A stretch of DNA of 64,000 nt, from the IMG/VR virus record IMGVR_UViG_3300049846_001081. One strand, 5' to 3'. Both the position numbers and the translations under genes were made by a program. The stretch is from a virus (taxonomy: Duplodnaviria > Caudoviricetes). The notes under the pieces are model-generated. The model was not told the DNA's origin and ran no database searches. It worked only from the letters and a program-made list of their open reading frames with translations. Of this stretch, positions 38,096 through 43,175 are shown one piece after another (position 1 is the stretch's first letter; every line of letters starts with the position of its first letter).

Positions 38096-39043
38096 ATGAG
38101 TCGTAATGAATTTTTGTGGGTTGAAAAATACCGACCCAAAACAATTGAAGATTGCATTCTCCCAGAGGGAACCAAAAAAACTTTTAAAGACTTCCTAGAT
38201 AAAGGAGAAGTTCCCAACCTTCTTCTTGCTGGACCTGCTGGGTGCGGTAAGACAACAGTAGCAAAAGCACTATGTAATGAACTAGGAGTAGATGTATATG
38301 TCATTAACGGATCCGACGAAGGTAGATTCCTTGATACTGTCCGAAACACTGCGAAGAACTTCGCTTCCACCGTATCGCTTTCGTCAACTGCTAAACACAA
38401 AGTCATCATTATTGATGAGGCAGATAACACAACCAACGACGTTCAACTCCTCTTACGGGCGTCTATTGAGGAATTTAGTAACAATTGCAGATTCATCTTC
38501 ACCTGCAATTACAAAAACAAAATCATTGAACCTCTCCACTCCCGATGTGCCGTGGTGGACTTCAGTATCAAAGGCAAGGAAAGGACCAACCTTGCTGCAG
38601 GTTTTTATGGACGCTTGCAAGACATCTTACAAAAGGAGGGGATCAAATATGATTCAAAAGTTCTCGTTGAACTTATTAACAAACATTTCCCCGATTGGAG
38701 ACGAATCCTCAATGAGTGCCAACGCTATTCGTCGGGAGGAGAAATCAACACGGGCATTCTTGCAACTTTTAGTGATGTAAAAATCAATGATCTCGTTAGT
38801 CATCTTAAGGATAAAAACTTTCCTGAAGTCCGAAAGTGGGTGGTCTCCAACTTGGATAACGATGCTTCTCACCTTCTTCGCAGGGTTTATGACGCTGTTT
38901 ATGATTGCTTACTTCCCCAATCTATCCCTGCTGCCGTTCTTGTTATTGCTAAGTATCAATACCAATGTGCGTTTGTGGCTGACCAAGAAATTAACCTCTT
39001 AGCAGCATTAACAGAAATTATGGTGGAGTGTGAATTTAAATGA
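38096..39043 (+). CDS. gp44: Clamp loader large subunit gp44
   Basis: LWVEKYRP, GPAGCGKTT, IIDEAD, SRC, FPDWRR. Confidence 0.96.
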   Translation: MSRNEFLWVEKYRPKTIEDCILPEGTKKTFKDFLDKGEVPNLLLAGPAGCGKTTVAKALCNELGVDVYVINGSDEGRFLDTVRNTAKNFASTVSLSSTAKHKVIIIDEADNTTNDVQLLLRASIEEFSNNCRFIFTCNYKNKIIEPLHSRCAVVDFSIKGKERTNLAAGFYGRLQDILQKEGIKYDSKVLVELINKHFPDWRRILNECQRYSSGGEINTGILATFSDVKINDLVSHLKDKNFPEVRKWVVSNLDNDASHLLRRVYDAVYDCLLPQSIPAAVLVIAKYQYQCAFVADQEINLLAALTEIMVECEFK

Positions 39044-39888
39044 AATCTCTAAAAACCCCTTTACGTTACCCTGGTGGTAAGTCTCGCGCCTGTGAAAAAA
39101 TAGGACTTTATATTCCAGATCTTCGTAACTATGATGAGTTCCGTGAACCATTTCTTGGTGGTGGAAGTGTTGCGATTTATATCGCCAAAAAATATCCTGG
39201 ATTAAATATTTGGGTAAATGATTTATACGAACCGCTGGTAAATTTCTGGCAACAACTCCAGATGTTTGGCAATGATCTTAAAGATAAACTGGTAGAATTA
39301 AAGACAGCAAACAATACTCCCGATTTGGCAAGAGAACTTTTTCTTCACTCAAAGGGGCAGATCAATGACCAAAGTTTGCCAAGTATTTATCGTGCTGTGG
39401 CTTTCTATGTTGTTAATAAGTGTTCTTTTAGTGGTCTCACAGAGAGTTCATCATTTTCGCAACAGGCATCTAACTCCAACTTTTCAATGCGTGGTATTGA
39501 AAAACTGCCTGCGTATTCTGCGTTGATTGCAAACTGGCGTATAACTAACTATTCCTACGACTATTTGTTGGATGGGAATATGGGTGCTTTTGTGTATCTT
39601 GATCCTCCTTATGACATTAAGGATAATCTCTATGGGAATAAAGGATCAATGCATAAAGGATTTGATCACGATAAGTTTGCTACTGATTGCGCTTCTTGTT
39701 ATATGCATCAACTGATAAGTTATAACTCTGATCAACTTGTAAAAGACCGTTTTATAGGTGAAAAATGGAAGACTGGTGAGTTTGATCTAACTTATACGAT
39801 GCGTTCTGTTGGTGAATATATGCGGGAGCAAAAAGAAAGAAAAGAACTTCTGCTGTTTAATTATAATAAAGATTTGTTATGGAATTGA
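39040..39888 (+). CDS. dam: DNA adenine methyltransferase (Dam/D12 class)
   Basis: LRYPGGKS, EPFLGGGSV, YLDPPY. Confidence 0.88.
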   Translation: MKSLKTPLRYPGGKSRACEKIGLYIPDLRNYDEFREPFLGGGSVAIYIAKKYPGLNIWVNDLYEPLVNFWQQLQMFGNDLKDKLVELKTANNTPDLARELFLHSKGQINDQSLPSIYRAVAFYVVNKCSFSGLTESSSFSQQASNSNFSMRGIEKLPAYSALIANWRITNYSYDYLLDGNMGAFVYLDPPYDIKDNLYGNKGSMHKGFDHDKFATDCASCYMHQLISYNSDQLVKDRFIGEKWKTGEFDLTYTMRSVGEYMREQKERKELLLFNYNKDLLWN

Positions 39889-40247
39889 AAGATTGGTTGA
39901 ACTCAATTAATTTTACAAAGGAAGACCTATCGGAAAATACTAAGGATTATCCTCCATATATTATCAATCGTTGTCTTTCTGGTCATATTGACTGTATTTT
40001 ATTTGCAAATGAAATGAATATTCATCATCAACTTGATAAAGATATGCAATATTCATTTTATCTAAATAGTTTGAGGAAAAAGAAGAGGTTTTCTCCCTGG
40101 CTCCGAAAGGATAAGGTTACAGACTTAGAATGTGTTAAATCATACTATGGATATAGTAATGAAAAAGCATCTCAAGCACTGAAAATCCTGACAAAAGAAC
40201 AACTTACTTTCATCAAAAAACGACTTGATATTGGAGGAAAAAAATGA
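39879..40247 (+). CDS. gp62: Clamp loader small subunit gp62
   Basis: YPPYIINRCLS, RKKKRFSPW, YYGYSNEKA. Confidence 0.9.
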   Translation: MELKDWLNSINFTKEDLSENTKDYPPYIINRCLSGHIDCILFANEMNIHHQLDKDMQYSFYLNSLRKKKRFSPWLRKDKVTDLECVKSYYGYSNEKASQALKILTKEQLTFIKKRLDIGGKK

Positions 40248-40681
40248 CTACTACGGTAGAACCTACTGTTGAATGGTCTCAGGACCAAATGGTAGAGGTA
40301 ATTCTTAATGAACCTGATGATTTTCTGAAAGTTCGTGAAACTTTGACTCGCATTGGAGTTGCATCAAGAAAGGAGAAAAAACTCTATCAATCTTGCCATA
40401 TTCTACACAAACAAGGTAGATATTTTATCGTTCACTTTAAAGAATTGTTTGCTCTTGACGGTAAACATGCAAACTTAACTGTAAACGATGTTCAAAGACG
40501 CAATCGTATTGTTCGTCTTCTTGCCGACTGGGGACTTATCACGGTTGTAAAAGAAAGTTCTGTTACTGATATTGCACCACTCAATCAAATTAAAGTTCTT
40601 GCTTATAAGGACAAAAATGATTGGATTCTTGAACAGAAATATAATATTGGTAAAAAAGGAAAAACAACAGACGGTGAATAA
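40244..40681 (+). CDS. regA: Translational repressor RegA
   Basis: FLKVRETLTRIGVAS, LYQSCHILHKQGRYFIVHFKELFALDG. Confidence 0.95.
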   Translation: MTTTVEPTVEWSQDQMVEVILNEPDDFLKVRETLTRIGVASRKEKKLYQSCHILHKQGRYFIVHFKELFALDGKHANLTVNDVQRRNRIVRLLADWGLITVVKESSVTDIAPLNQIKVLAYKDKNDWILEQKYNIGKKGKTTDGE

Positions 40682-40732
40682 ATAGTATGTCGCTTTCGTG
40701 CGCGACACGCTACAACGGAATAACGCTATGAT

Positions 40733-40768
40733 GGAGGGCTTGACACCCTCCTTTTTTTCTGCTATAAT
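40733..40768 (+). promoter_or_regulatory. Terminator hairpin containing the -35 of a consensus sigma70 promoter driving the R-M pair
   Basis: GGAGGG-cttgaca-CCCTCC-T7; TTGACA 40740-40745, N17, TATAAT 40763-40768. Confidence 0.85.
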
Positions 40769-40800
40769 AAGAACGATTGATAAACCAACTACCTTTTACT

Positions 40801-41430
40801 ATGACCGCCCTCAAAGTCGGAACGATTGAGTATCTAAAAAATGTTCCTCTTTATGGTGATGAAATTGGATCATTTGCAGTAACAAGATATTCTGATAAAG
40901 ATATTTCTTTGTTTAAAGAAAACTTTGAGTCCTGGGTAAAACATCGCGAACTGTGTCTAAGCATTGGTGGTAGAGCACCTAATTTGTGTGATGCTTTTAC
41001 TGAAGGTATGTACTGCCTTTATAGTGGTTCTGTTCGTTATGTAAAAGTAGATCGTAGAAAAGCAGAATATAAAACATTTGGACCAGAAAAACTATCCAAT
41101 GCATCTATTGATACTTATTCTGAAAAAAACAAAGAAGGGGAACAAATAAAGTCATCAATTATTTTAGATGATTGTACATCTTTTGGTCCAACAAGTAAAC
41201 AAGATGCACTTTACTTTATGCATTTTTATCGTGACGGTAAAACTCTTGATGGATCTTTTGATTTGTATAGAATTGAAAATGATTTACTGTACTCTACAGT
41301 TATTAAAAATGATGGAACTACCTTTGCCGAAAAACAAAAGACAGGGCAAAGACCTCATTTTTCTTTGATGAAAAAAGTAATCATCCCAAATAACATTCAA
41401 CCCATTGAAAAAAATGTCAAACTTTGGTAA
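40801..41430 (+). CDS. Type II restriction endonuclease, Bsp6I-like (predicted GCNGC)
   Basis: GGRAPNLCDAFTE, SIDTY..EQIKSS, DCTSFGP, GQRPHFSL match recalled Bsp6I-family blocks; overlaps a C5 methyltransferase gene. Confidence 0.75.
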   Translation: MTALKVGTIEYLKNVPLYGDEIGSFAVTRYSDKDISLFKENFESWVKHRELCLSIGGRAPNLCDAFTEGMYCLYSGSVRYVKVDRRKAEYKTFGPEKLSNASIDTYSEKNKEGEQIKSSIILDDCTSFGPTSKQDALYFMHFYRDGKTLDGSFDLYRIENDLLYSTVIKNDGTTFAEKQKTGQRPHFSLMKKVIIPNNIQPIEKNVKLW

Positions 41431-42367
41431 TAAAACAATTGATCTTTTTGCTGGTATTGGTGGAGTTCGCATAGGATTTGAACGAGCAGGATTTCAAACG
41501 GTATTTGCCAATGATTTTGAACCAAAATGTAAATTGACGTATGATTTAAACTTTGATGAACCAAAATTATTGATAGAAGACATACGCAATATTTCTCCAG
41601 ATACTCTTCCAGACTTTAATTTTTTATTGGGTGGATTCCCTTGCCAAGCATTTTCTATTGCTGGTCATCGTCAGGGATTTGATGATGAGAAAGATCGTGG
41701 AAATTTATTTTTTTACATTGCAAAAATTCTTGAAACTAAAAAACCAGATGGTTTCTTTTTGGAGAATGTAAAAAATTTGTGTTCTCATGATAATGGTAGA
41801 ACATTTCAAATTATTGCTTCTGTTTTAAATGATCTCGGTTATCACCTTAACTATAAGGTATTAAACACAATGGAGTATGGAAATGTCCCTCAAAATAGGG
41901 AGCGTATTTACATTGTTGGATTTAAAGATGTTGAACGTGCAAATAAATTTAGGTTTCCAAATCCGAAACATTTGACAGTTACTGTGAAGGACTTGTTGGA
42001 ACCAGTTGTTGATGCAAAATATTATTATGAAAATAAACCTTTGTATGAAAAAATTAAAAATGATGTAAATGATGAAAACAAAATATATCAATGGCGAAGA
42101 GTTTATGTTAGAGAAAATAAAAAAAATGTATGCCCAACTTTAACTGCAAATATGGGAACTGGTGGTCATAATGTTCCCATTATCAGAGATTCTGTAGGAA
42201 TCCGCAAATTAACTCCATGGGAATGTTTGAGAATGCAAGGTTTTCCTGATACTTATAAATTACCAAAATTAAATAGTGATGGTCCACTATATACGCAAGC
42301 GGGTAATTCGGTAAGTGTTCCAGTTATAGAATCTATTGCTAGAGAAATTGCAAAAGTTTGTATGTGA
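41414..42367 (+). CDS. DNA cytosine-5 methyltransferase, M.Bsp6I-like
   Basis: DLFAGIGG, GFPCQAFS, ENV, PQNRER, RKLTP.EC..QGFP, QAGNSV; TRD IYQWRRVYVRENKKNVCPTLTANMGTGGHNVP. Confidence 0.92.
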   Translation: MSNFGNKTIDLFAGIGGVRIGFERAGFQTVFANDFEPKCKLTYDLNFDEPKLLIEDIRNISPDTLPDFNFLLGGFPCQAFSIAGHRQGFDDEKDRGNLFFYIAKILETKKPDGFFLENVKNLCSHDNGRTFQIIASVLNDLGYHLNYKVLNTMEYGNVPQNRERIYIVGFKDVERANKFRFPNPKHLTVTVKDLLEPVVDAKYYYENKPLYEKIKNDVNDENKIYQWRRVYVRENKKNVCPTLTANMGTGGHNVPIIRDSVGIRKLTPWECLRMQGFPDTYKLPKLNSDGPLYTQAGNSVSVPVIESIAREIAKVCM

Positions 42368-42384
42368 AACCGAACAAAAATTTA

Positions 42385-42408
42385 CGGGGTTCATCACCTC
42401 GTTTTTTT
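42385..42408 (+). terminator. Terminator closing the R-M cassette
   Basis: CGGGGT-tcatc-ACCTCG-T7; TATAAT follows at 42419-42424. Confidence 0.7.
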
Positions 42409-42484
42409 ATGATTGTTGTATAATTAGTATTGGATGCCTTCGGGGTCCACAAAACACAAACTCGCTTTAAAAGGAGCTACCATA

Positions 42485-42919
42485 ATGACTAACCTAATGA
42501 AATATCAGGCTGCGGATCTTCCTGCATTGTTGGAAAGAATTAATCGCAATACAATTGGAATGGATGAATACTTTGATCGTATTTTTAAAATTCACGAAAC
42601 AACTTCCAATTATCCACCATATAATCTTGTTCAAGTTAGTAATGTAGAATCCCGACTTGAAATTGCTCTTGCTGGATTTAAAAAGGGAGAAGTTTATGTC
42701 TACACTCAAGACGGCAAACTTTTTATTGAAGGTCAGAAGGAGGATAAAGAAACAGACACCAGGTACGTTCACAAGGGTCTGGCTCAACGGTCGTTTACAC
42801 GTTCCTGGACACTCTCTGATGACACGGAAGTTAGATCAGTTGATTTTGAGGATGGGCTTCTAACGGTCACTCTTGGAAGAATTGTTCCTGATCACCATAA
42901 GAGGAAAGATTATCTCTAA
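42485..42919 (+). CDS. hsp20: Small heat-shock protein Hsp20
   Basis: NYPPYNL, LEIALAGF, HKGLAQRSFTRSWTL, DGLL; AGGAG RBS upstream of ATG 42485. Confidence 0.93.
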   Translation: MTNLMKYQAADLPALLERINRNTIGMDEYFDRIFKIHETTSNYPPYNLVQVSNVESRLEIALAGFKKGEVYVYTQDGKLFIEGQKEDKETDTRYVHKGLAQRSFTRSWTLSDDTEVRSVDFEDGLLTVTLGRIVPDHHKRKDYL

Positions 42920-42935
42920 ATAATTAAAAAAATCA

Positions 42936-43175
42936 ATGAAGTCTTTCAAAGAGTTTGAAGCAATCGCTTATAAAGGAGCAGTTCCCCATACTGTTTTTTC
43001 TGGAGGAAAAGCGAAAAAAATTCCTAAAGGAAAGGCAGTTCCTGTAAGAAGTCGCTCTAGTGCTGGTGGATTTGGTGGAGTTGGTGGTGGGTCTGCTCCA
43101 GGACCCGGTGGCGGTGCTGGAGGAACATCTGGTGCCTCTGGTAATGGTGGTGGAAACGGTGGTGATGGCGAATAA
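42936..43175 (+). CDS. Gly-rich small protein with capsid-targeting-like N-terminus
   Basis: MKSFKEFE; CTAAATA at 42916-42922; Gly-rich tail. Confidence 0.6.
   Translation: MKSFKEFEAIAYKGAVPHTVFSGGKAKKIPKGKAVPVRSRSSAGGFGGVGGGSAPGPGGGAGGTSGASGNGGGNGGDGE

What the first reader, a model, noticed from the sequence alone, without database searches (positions are those of the whole stretch)
40733..42408. Complete Bsp6I-like (GCNGC) type II restriction-modification system carried by a T4-like cyanophage
Seen: two overlapping genes (17-nt overlap) sit between regA and hsp20, bounded by a perfect TTGACA-N17-TATAAT promoter and a terminator. The downstream gene has the conserved C5-methyltransferase motifs. 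Knowledge (recalled): its target-recognition segment YQWRRxYVRENKxNVCPTLTANMGTGGHNVP closely matches M.Bsp6I, and the upstream ORF carries Bsp6I-family blocks (R-x-x-N-x-x-D-A-x-x-E, SFGP, GxRPHxSL). Orphan methyltransferases are common in cyanophages; an intact restriction endonuclease partner is much less expected. GCNGC is not eliminated from the phage (e.g. GCAGC 24133, GCTGC 24193), so self-methylation would be required. Inference: the nuclease could shred the probably GC-richer host chromosome, exclude unmethylated co-infecting phages, or be a selfish cassette.
Basis: partly seen in the sequence, partly recalled or inferred. Interest (0 to 1): 0.88.

Follow-up and report, generated by a model that had tools for sequence, protein, structure and literature searches.

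The report
Cyanophage carries intact GCNGC restriction-modification cassette
A T4-like virus of cyanobacteria carries a complete, apparently working restriction enzyme plus its protective DNA methylase, inserted as a movable cassette between two core genes, so the virus can probably cut up any DNA (host or rival virus) that lacks its own methyl mark.

Summary
The observation and most of the interpretation hold. Window 40801-41430 encodes a 209-aa protein that passes Pfam RE_Bsp6I (38.4 bits, cut-off 25). It keeps the family's catalytic E68/D104/Q115-x-K117 and gives a confident PvuII/BisI-like nuclease fold and a predicted homodimer. Overlapping it by 17 nt, 41414-42367 encodes a C5-methyltransferase 54% identical to authentic M.Bsp6I (GCNGC), with 29 of 31 identical residues in the target-recognition block.

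The pair sits between regA and hsp20; in the nearest isolate, S-SM2, these genes are adjacent. It is bracketed by two stem-loop/T-run/TATAAT modules of the PeSL type. GCNGC is not avoided (74 sites in 64 kb), so self-methylation is needed.

No R homologue was found in 50,697 deposited phage genomes. R-then-M pairs were present in all 22 metagenomic or IMG/VR loci fetched, at several different genomic sites, including a complete 172-kb psbA/gp23 cyanomyovirus. R is under purifying selection (dN/dS 0.066). An RNA library holds identical contigs over R and M.

Most likely it is an active GCNGC R-M system expressed early, which cuts unmethylated host and competitor DNA while the pre-methylated phage genome is spared. 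The family is known; the carrier and use are unusual. The scan had already noted this same stretch once, in another reading of the same genome.

The parts
40733..40751 (+). Stem-loop GGAGGG-CTTGACA-CCCTCC followed by a T7 run. It is the regA terminator and the stem-loop half of the upstream PeSL-like module; its loop holds the -35 box.
   Evidence: Terminator scan; hairpin/T-run/TATAAT scan; aligned to the single S-SM2 spacer.
40740..40768 (+). Sigma-70-type early promoter TTGACA-N17-TATAAT with TG before the -10 box. It drives R and M.
   Evidence: 12 of 12 consensus match, the only one in 40200-42900. Identical in the independent contig L011.
40801..41430 (+). R gene: a 209-aa Bsp6I-family PD-(D/E)XK type IIP restriction endonuclease with catalytic E68, D104 and Q115-I-K117.
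   Evidence: PF09504 at 38.4 bits against a cut-off of 25. hhalign probability 99.9% to a Bsp6I-cluster REase. Column conservation. AF2 pLDDT 95.3. NhoI/Eco15I Z 8.3 and PvuII Z 6-6.8. Homodimer ipSAE 0.79 against a best control of 0.00. dN/dS 0.066.
41414..41430 (+). 17-nt R/M overlap (ATGTCAAACTTTGGTAA): the M start codon lies inside the last codons of R, which suggests translational coupling.
   Evidence: Direct reading. The same 17-nt overlap occurs in L001-L013 and L016.
41414..42367 (+). M gene: a 317-aa C5-cytosine DNA methyltransferase with an M.Bsp6I-type target-recognition domain (predicted G-m5C-NGC).
   Evidence: PF00145 at 302 bits and TIGR00675 at 333 bits. 54% identical to M.Bsp6I P43420, with 29 of 31 identical in the TRD block. 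TRD conserved in all phage cassettes. dN/dS 0.033.
42384..42409 (+). Stem-loop ACGGGGT-TCATC-ACCTCGT plus T-run. It is the terminator of the R-M operon and the stem-loop half of the downstream PeSL-like module.
42419..42424 (+). TATAAT -10 box of the hsp20 promoter. From this point the sequence is again collinear with the S-SM2 regA-hsp20 spacer, so it marks the right edge of the insertion.
   Evidence: Alignment A3 of both junctions with the S-SM2 spacer and with L011; sequences.

Best explanation
This is an intact, expressed type IIP restriction-modification operon of the Bsp6I (GC^NGC) kind, carried by a lytic T4-like cyanomyovirus. It arrived as a cassette between two promoter/terminator (PeSL-type) modules in the regA-hsp20 spacer.

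Shown: both genes are intact, conserved and linked. R has the fold, catalytic residues and predicted homodimer of a PvuII/BisI-like nuclease. M has the M.Bsp6I target-recognition domain. The phage keeps about one GCNGC per 865 bp.

Inferred mechanism: virion DNA enters already methylated at G-m5C-NGC from the previous cycle. This makes it safe to transcribe R first, from a consensus sigma-70 early promoter, with M translationally coupled behind it. The R homodimer cuts every unmethylated GCNGC in the cell. That covers the host chromosome (about 1 site per 75-250 bp at 50-68% GC) and any co-infecting phage without the mark. Host gene expression is thereby shut down and nucleotides are released. 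Meanwhile M keeps the hemimethylated daughter phage DNA protected.

This is functionally the same logic as chlorovirus R-M systems, and as T4's modified cytosine combined with nucleases specific for unmodified cytosine-containing DNA.
For: Family and integrity:
- PF09504 is passed above the gathering score, and hhalign gives 99.9% to a Bsp6I-cluster REase.
- In 72 family members E68 is E in 71, D104 in 72, position 115 is Q in 64 and E in 7, and K117 in 72. All are present here.
- The AF2 model has pLDDT 95.3. Its best PDB matches are the GCNGC cutters NhoI/Eco15I (Z 8.3), which use xD...Q(V/I)K (PMC11347163), followed by PvuII.
- Predicted homodimer: ipSAE 0.79, best control 0.00. That mark was reached by 20 of 30 proteins solved as pairs of one chain and 1 of 23 solved as single chains. 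The runs agree in at least 96% of contacts and pLDDT is 90.

Specificity: M is 54% identical to M.Bsp6I P43420, with 29 of 31 identical in the TRD.

Selection and linkage: dN/dS is 0.066 for R and 0.033 for M against L011. R is intact and directly upstream of M in 22 of 22 loci.

Need for protection: 74 GCNGC sites, not depleted.

Insertion: S-SM2 has regA directly followed by hsp20. Junction alignment. Two of the three composite hairpin/T-run/TATAAT modules in 64 kb flank the cassette. PeSL architecture is described in PMC4122927.

Expression: 12/12 promoter. An RNA library holds 100%-identical contigs on R, on the R/M junction and on M, with patchy depth along the phage.

Precedent: chlorovirus R-M enzymes are thought to degrade host DNA (PMC7019647).
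Against: No enzymatic or methylome data exist. R is only about 24% identical to Bsp6I-type enzymes, so its site is inferred from M. The RNA-library contigs could be contaminating DNA. Contigs identical to the cassette lie at very low word depth next to abundant relatives that lack it, so any advantage is not sweeping. No deposited phage isolate carries it. The host is unknown and may itself methylate GCNGC. In chloroviruses the restriction enzymes were found not to be responsible for mutual exclusion.
Confidence: 0.6

Rival explanations
1. The main role is competition between phages. The cassette destroys co-infecting or superinfecting cyanophage genomes that lack GCNGC methylation. It may also spread into their empty regA-hsp20 site by recombinational repair (a drive-like effect). 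Host DNA degradation would be secondary.
For: Relatives lacking the cassette coexist in the same samples: contigs join about 40510-40651 to about 42404-42443. Related phage DNA carries GCNGC at ordinary frequency, so it would be cut. The cassette sits at different sites in different cyanomyoviruses. The flanking PeSL-type repeats favour recombination.
Against: M expressed in the same cell would also methylate the competitor's DNA, which blunts exclusion. The cassette looks rare among relatives, which is not what a strong drive predicts. In chloroviruses the restriction enzymes were not responsible for mutual exclusion.
Confidence: 0.3
2. It is a selfish, addictive R-M cassette that hitch-hikes in the plastic regions of cyanomyovirus genomes by PeSL-mediated shuffling and gives the phage no net benefit.
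For: It has a patchy distribution at several insertion sites. It lies at low depth relative to cassette-free relatives. It is absent from 50,697 deposited phage genomes. R-M systems are known selfish elements (established knowledge, Kobayashi 2001).
Against: Both genes are under strong purifying selection within a phage lineage. They are retained in at least about 10 divergent cyanophage-like contexts with R always intact. Their base composition is close to that of the phage. Post-segregational killing has no obvious target in a lytic virus that kills its host anyway.
Confidence: 0.2
3. Only the methylase matters, protecting the phage against host Bsp6I/Fnu4HI-type restriction. The endonuclease would be inactive or decaying baggage.
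For: Orphan methylases are common in cyanophages (PMC12801897). No activity data exist.
Against: R dN/dS is 0.066 with dS 0.31. All catalytic residues are kept. The fold and dimer are confident. R is intact in 22 of 22 loci and no M-only version was seen among them.
Confidence: 0.05
4. The nuclease is a BisI-like modification-dependent enzyme that cuts methylated GCNGC, and it is not the cognate partner of M.
For: The best structural matches are the BisI-family enzymes NhoI and Eco15I, with the same Q-x-K motif. A conserved R-P-(R/H)-(F/L/I) motif near the C-terminus loosely recalls their (H/R)(V/I/T/M) methyl-binding motif.
Against: That enzyme would be lethal next to a GCNGC methylase, yet the two genes overlap and co-occur in 22 of 22 loci. 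The family profile finds no BisI-family sequence in the PDB, while Pfam RE_Bsp6I and a Bsp6I-cluster enzyme match strongly.
Confidence: 0.03

Closest known systems
Bsp6I R-M system of Bacillus sp. RFL6 (R.Bsp6I GC^NGC, M.Bsp6I P43420) and its near-copies on small Bacillus plasmids such as pTM1, NZ_AP025263
   Same: The gene order is R then M on one strand. R belongs to PF09504 with E...D...(E/Q)xK. M is 54% identical, with a nearly identical TRD.
   Different: The phage R is 209 aa rather than 174 aa and only about 24% identical. It has Q-x-K instead of E-x-K, an extra N-terminal beta-hairpin and an insert at residues 83-100. The genes overlap by 17 nt instead of being about 100 nt apart. The carrier is a lytic T4-like cyanophage, not a plasmid.
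BisI family (NhoI, Eco15I; PDB 8q5n, 8q5o, 8rpx) and PvuII
   Same: These are the closest solved folds (Z 8.3 and 6-6.8). They share the PvuII-like dimeric PD-(D/E)XK architecture. BisI enzymes also act on GCNGC, cut to a 1-nt 5' overhang and use D...Q(V/I)K.
   Different: BisI enzymes require methylated GCNGC and are solitary. No sequence-level relation was detectable. The phage enzyme is paired with a GCNGC methylase and must therefore be methyl-sensitive.
Chlorovirus (PBCV-1 and relatives) virus-encoded type II R-M pairs
   Same: A lytic virus of a photosynthetic host carries adjacent R and M genes, and its genome is methylated at the cognate site. The nuclease is thought to degrade host DNA early in infection (PMC7019647).
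   Different: Those are eukaryotic-algal giant viruses with unrelated enzyme families recognising 2-4 bp sites, and the nucleases are packaged in the virion. Packaging is unknown here.
PeSL (promoter-early stem-loop) mobile regulatory cassettes of T4-type phages (Arbiol 2010, PMC2839356; Comeau 2014, PMC4122927)
   Same: They have a stem-loop plus a near-consensus sigma-70 early promoter (TTGACA-N17-TATAAT) and flank variable, non-core genes.
   Different: They were described in coliphages and vibriophages. Here the -35 box lies in the hairpin loop and the cargo is an R-M pair. Recombination at these modules is inferred from the junctions, not shown.

Membership tests
Pfam PF09504 RE_Bsp6I (Bsp6I-family type II restriction endonuclease) | Score above the curated gathering threshold over most of the profile | tested here: met
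   38.4 bits against a cut-off of 25, E 1.3e-9, profile positions 18-169 of 179. hhalign probability 99.9% over 160 columns to a Bsp6I-cluster enzyme. The NCBIfam library gave no hit at E 0.01.
Pfam PF09504 RE_Bsp6I (Bsp6I-family type II restriction endonuclease) | PD-(D/E)XK catalytic residues: Glu in helix alpha-1, Asp at the start of a beta-strand, (E/Q)-x-K in the next strand | tested here: met
   E68 lies in helix 64-75, D104 just before strand 105-107, and Q115-I-K117 in strand 112-119. D and K are invariant in 72 sequences.
Pfam PF09504 RE_Bsp6I (Bsp6I-family type II restriction endonuclease) | Cleaves GC^NGC and is blocked by cognate m5C methylation | not testable with these tools
   Inferred only from the partner methylase's TRD and the constant R-M linkage.
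Type IIP R-M system | Separate, adjacent nuclease and methyltransferase genes, with the nuclease acting as a homodimer on a palindromic site | tested here: met
   The genes are adjacent and overlapping. Predicted homodimer: ipSAE 0.79, best control 0.00; the mark was reached by 20 of 30 proteins solved as pairs of one chain and 1 of 23 solved as single chains; runs agree in at least 96% of contacts; pLDDT 90. This is a prediction, not a measurement.
C5-cytosine DNA methyltransferase (PF00145), M.Bsp6I specificity group | Conserved motifs I, IV (PCQ), VI (ENV), VIII, IX and X | tested here: met
   PF00145 at 302 bits over 323 of 324 profile positions and TIGR00675 at 333 bits. The motifs are readable in P0002.
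C5-cytosine DNA methyltransferase (PF00145), M.Bsp6I specificity group | Target-recognition domain like that of M.Bsp6I (GCNGC) | tested here: met
   29 of 31 residues are identical to P43420 across IYQWRRxYVRENKxNVCPTLTANMGTGGHNVP. Against the pTM1 near-copy of M.Bsp6I, identity is 78% in the TRD segment and 51% elsewhere. The methylated base and site were not measured.
PeSL-type mobile promoter/terminator module | Stem-loop joined to a sigma-70-like early promoter, in copies flanking a variable gene block that close relatives lack | tested here: met
   Modules lie at 40733-40768 and 42384-42424. S-SM2 has a single module and no cassette. Actual recombination at the modules was not tested.
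BisI family (modification-dependent GCNGC endonucleases) | Sequence membership and solitary occurrence without a cognate methylase | tested here: not met
   The family profile finds no NhoI or Eco15I sequence. The gene is always paired with a GCNGC-type methylase. Only the fold is shared.
T4-like cyanomyovirus (Kyanoviridae) | T4-type replication module and nearest relatives among cyanomyoviruses | tested here: met
   gp62, regA and hsp20 are in the window, and gp45/gp44 are in the collinear L011. DNA is 77-80% identical to S-SM2, Bellamy and SynMITS9220M01 over gp43, gp41 and nrdA. The host was not determined.

The most novel reading that the evidence does not exclude
Lytic cyanomyoviruses use a mobile, PeSL-flanked GCNGC R-M cassette as an offensive weapon. 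Because the virion DNA arrives pre-methylated, the nuclease can be made first and can shred the GC-rich host chromosome and unmarked rival phages within minutes. It would be a bacteriophage counterpart of the chlorovirus R-M strategy, and a methyl-based substitute for T4's hydroxymethylcytosine combined with its nucleases specific for unmodified cytosine-containing DNA. The cassette would also spread among phages by cutting and repairing empty sites.
Probability: 0.4. Interest if true: 0.75.

Novelty: new member of a known kind. Interest (0 to 1): 0.62.

Why it matters
Phage methylases are usually read as passive shields against host restriction. A complete, selected and probably transcribed restriction enzyme in a virulent T4-like cyanophage points to active use of restriction by the virus, against the host chromosome or against rival phages.

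The system recurs as a cassette at different sites in several uncultured cyanomyovirus lineages, yet it was not found in 50,697 deposited phage genomes. Culture collections therefore miss it.

It gives a directly testable model for three questions. How do cyanophages, which as far as is known lack T4's base modification, tell self from host DNA? How is host DNA recycled in nutrient-poor waters? How do accessory cassettes move between phages?

It also supplies a divergent Bsp6I-family enzyme whose closest solved folds are the methyl-dependent GCNGC cutters. That is of interest for how methyl-sensitive and methyl-dependent recognition of one site are related.

Tried and rejected
- **R against deposited phages:** tblastn of R against 50,697 phage records gave no match.
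- **NCBIfam:** no hit for R at E 0.01.
- **PDB by sequence:** the single sequence and the 72-member profile found nothing meaningful. Foldseek alone gave only E of about 0.08 or weaker. The VIA re-alignment was needed to see the matches.
- **Bsp6I mutagenesis paper:** Pawlak et al. 2005 (PMC548357) is not held, so published catalytic residue numbers could not be quoted.
- **M.HhaI loop comparison:** I tried to infer M specificity from Loop 2 of M.HhaI, which is reported as five residues shorter in the M.Bsp6I hybrid (PMC2790894). The HMMER alignment to M.HhaI is gap-free there, so this was uninformative. It was replaced by the direct comparison with P43420.
- **Upstream small ORF:** the 82-84-aa ORF before R in other cassettes was tested as a possible controller protein. 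It has no significant Pfam match and is absent from this window.
- **Cassette free of its own site:** zero GCNGC in 1.65 kb against about 1.7 expected is not significant.
- **Literature:** searches found no report of a restriction endonuclease plus methylase pair in a cyanophage. The library is incomplete, so this is not proof of absence.
Full report
**What is in the sequence**

Two same-strand ORFs lie at the stated place.
- R runs 40801-41430 (209 aa, kept as P0001).
- M runs 41414-42367 (317 aa, kept as P0002).
- They overlap by 17 nt.

The neighbours were identified with Pfam.
- Upstream are a Dam-like D12 methylase (39040-39888), the gp62 clamp loader and regA (40244-40681).
- Downstream is hsp20.

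The promoter is a perfect TTGACA-N17-TATAAT at 40740-40768, the only 12/12 match in the region. Terminator-like hairpins lie at 40733-40751 and 42384-42402. The -35 hexamer sits in the loop of the first hairpin, so regA's terminator and the R-M promoter form one composite element.

**Identity of the nuclease**

P0001 passes Pfam RE_Bsp6I above the curated cut-off: 38.4 bits against 25, covering profile positions 18-169 of 179.

An exhaustive HMMER search found 193 family clusters (collected). In a 72-member alignment of these, the candidate catalytic positions are conserved as follows:

| Position in P0001 | Residue across 72 sequences |
|---|---|
| E68 | E in 71 |
| D104 | D in 72 |
| Q115 | Q in 64, E in 7 |
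| K117 | K in 72 |

A 174-aa 'Bsp6I family' enzyme sits next to a 95%-identical copy of M.Bsp6I on Bacillus plasmid pTM1. It aligns to this family profile with 99.9% probability over 160 columns and places its E, D and E-S-K on these same columns.

The AlphaFold model is very confident (pLDDT 95.3, pTM 0.91). It puts E68 in helix 64-75, D104 just before strand 105-107, and Q-I-K in strand 112-119.

Foldseek alone gave only weak hits. Re-alignment ranked NhoI and Eco15I first (Z 8.3) and PvuII next (Z 6.1-6.8).
- NhoI and Eco15I are BisI-family enzymes that cut GCNGC to a 1-nt 5' overhang.
- They use xD...Q(V/I)K plus a helix glutamate, and their closest canonical relative is PvuII (PMC11347163).
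- No sequence-level link to them was detectable. The phage protein therefore shares their fold but is not a BisI-family member.

A homodimer is predicted with ipSAE 0.79, against a best control of 0.00.
- In the tool's calibration that mark was reached by 20 of 30 proteins solved as pairs of one chain and 1 of 23 solved as single chains.
- The runs agree in at least 96% of contacts, and pLDDT is 90.
- The interface runs through helix 32-54 and residues 55-69.
- This supports pairing but does not show it.

**Identity and specificity of the methylase**

P0002 is a full-length C5-methyltransferase: PF00145 at 302 bits and TIGR00675 at 333 bits.

The authentic M.Bsp6I (Swiss-Prot P43420) was recovered through the cluster of the pTM1 methylase. 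P0002 is 54% identical to it overall. In the block IYQWRRxYVRENKxNVCPTLTANMGTGGHNVP, 29 of 31 residues are identical.

The TRD core is conserved in all twelve distinct phage cassettes examined. Against the pTM1 near-copy of M.Bsp6I, identity is 78% in the TRD segment and 51% elsewhere.

The TRD sets specificity in this enzyme class (PMC2790894). G-m5C-NGC methylation is therefore the well-supported prediction. GCNGC cleavage by R follows by inference from the obligate pairing.

**Need for self-protection**

The window has 74 GCNGC sites, one per 865 bp. Markov-1 simulations give 58 +/- 7, so the observed/expected ratio is about 1.2-1.3. The site is not avoided.

GGCC (5 sites against about 64 expected) and TCGA (6 against about 160) are strongly avoided. 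So this phage avoids some sites but not this one.

**Carrier and insertion**

The flanking DNA is 77-80% identical to Synechococcus myoviruses S-SM2, Bellamy and SynMITS9220M01 over gp43, gp41, nrdA, regA and hsp20.

In S-SM2, regA is followed after a 159-bp spacer by hsp20. Aligning both window junctions with that spacer gives the following picture.
- The single S-SM2 module (stem-loop, T-run, TATAAT) is present on both sides of the cassette.
- The left copy now drives R-M.
- The right copy keeps the hsp20 promoter and leader.
- The insertion is about 1.65 kb, roughly 40769-42418.

Only three such composite modules occur in the 64 kb, and two of them bracket the cassette. This matches the PeSL elements that mediate modular shuffling in T4-type phages (PMC4122927).

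The cassette's GC3 (0.18-0.20) lies about one standard deviation below the phage mean (0.26 +/- 0.08).

**Distribution**

- No R homologue exists in 50,697 deposited phage genomes, and no close homologue of M does (best 53%).
- Metagenomes hold 18 close R clusters and more than 100 M clusters at 70-96% identity.
- All 22 loci fetched have an intact R directly upstream of M.
- L011 is an independent assembly with the same regA-R-M-hsp20 arrangement at 96% amino-acid identity.
- Other cassettes lie after cp12, after a DEAD-box helicase, or in ORFan-rich regions.
- Seven IMG/VR contigs carry the pair. They include a complete 172-kb genome with terminal repeats, gp23 and psbA, and two further psbA-bearing contigs.
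- The stretch, or parts of it, occurs in runs from 17 studies. Almost all are labelled freshwater.
- In three DNA metagenomes some contigs are identical to the cassette, and others join about 40510-40651 to about 42404-42443, skipping it. Cassette-free relatives therefore coexist. The word depths suggest they greatly outnumber carriers, but contig depths are crude.

**Selection and expression**

Against L011, dN/dS is 0.066 for R (dS 0.31) and 0.033 for M. Across more distant cassettes it stays at or below 0.37 for R.

One metatranscriptomic library holds contigs 100% identical to the window.
- They cover regA, R (40807-40987), the R/M junction (41137-41612), M (41937-42136) and hsp20.
- Contig depths are very uneven along 20 kb of the phage, with hsp20 far above the rest and some stretches empty.
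- This fits RNA better than contaminating DNA, but it does not prove transcription.

**Mechanism**

Shown so far: an intact, linked and selected R-M pair with a consensus early promoter, in a genome full of target sites.

Inferred:
1. Virion DNA is already methylated, so making R first and M by translational coupling is safe for the phage.
2. Unmethylated host DNA (about 1 site per 75-250 bp at 50-68% GC) and unmarked rival phage DNA are cut.
3. Hemimethylated daughter DNA is maintained by M.

The documented parallel is the chlorovirus R-M systems, whose enzymes are thought to degrade host DNA within minutes of infection (PMC7019647).

The rivals are phage-phage exclusion or drive, a purely selfish cassette, a dead nuclease, and a methyl-dependent nuclease. 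Each is weighed in its own section. The last two are poorly compatible with the selection and linkage data.

**Verdict**

The enzyme family and system type are known. The carrier (virulent T4-like cyanophages), the cassette mobility and the probable offensive use are the interesting parts, and they are directly testable.

Noticed in passing
window 1-64000: GGCC (5 observed, about 64 expected) and TCGA (6 observed, about 160 expected) are almost eliminated. AGCT, CATG and CCGG are at 0.3-0.45 of expectation. GCNGC and GATC are not avoided. This looks like site avoidance against HaeIII-, TaqI-, AluI- and NlaIII-type host restriction.
   Followed up: partly
window 39040-39888 (+): A Dam-like D12 N6-adenine methyltransferase (PF02086) is wedged between the gp44 position and gp62, overlapping the gp62 start. 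S-SM2 has unrelated ORFs at that place. It is a second, orphan methylase 0.9 kb upstream of the R-M cassette.
   Followed up: partly
window 42428-42490 (+), hsp20 leader: A weak match to the ROSE_3 heat-shock RNA thermometer (24.3 bits, gathering score 43, E 0.032) lies directly upstream of hsp20. The leader is conserved in S-SM2 and L011.
   Followed up: no
window 40686-40725 (+): A conserved hairpin, GTCGC-TTTCGT-GCGAC plus ACGCTAC, lies just after the regA stop codon. It is nearly identical in S-SM2 and L011 although the surrounding DNA is about 80% identical. It may be an RNA element or operator.
   Followed up: no
window 42936-43175 (+): A glycine-rich small ORF (GGxGG repeats) follows hsp20. 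Its repeat tract differs in length and sequence between metagenomic contigs: joints skip 95-96 nt and other GGDGG-coding letters replace them (tables 5 and 5c).
   Followed up: no
L002:1270-1524, L007:7739-7987 (other cassettes): An 82-84-aa ORF lies directly upstream of R in the cp12-site and helicase-site cassettes. Only its last ~50 nt remain in L001. It has no significant Pfam match. It could be a third cassette gene, but it is absent from the window.
   Followed up: partly
proteins P0095-P0140: Methylases 68-72% identical to the phage M are fused to a LexA-like repressor (PF01726 + PF00717) in about 525-aa proteins, two of them labelled Patescibacteria. This would be a methylase-LexA fusion.
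   Followed up: no
same genome, about 8-19 kb before the window start (outside the window): Earlier first-reader notes (e1-5382553, e1-5382546) describe an array of 36-39-bp direct repeats that delimit gene cassettes, including another 'putative R-M pair'. No genome is held, so this could not be read.
   Followed up: no
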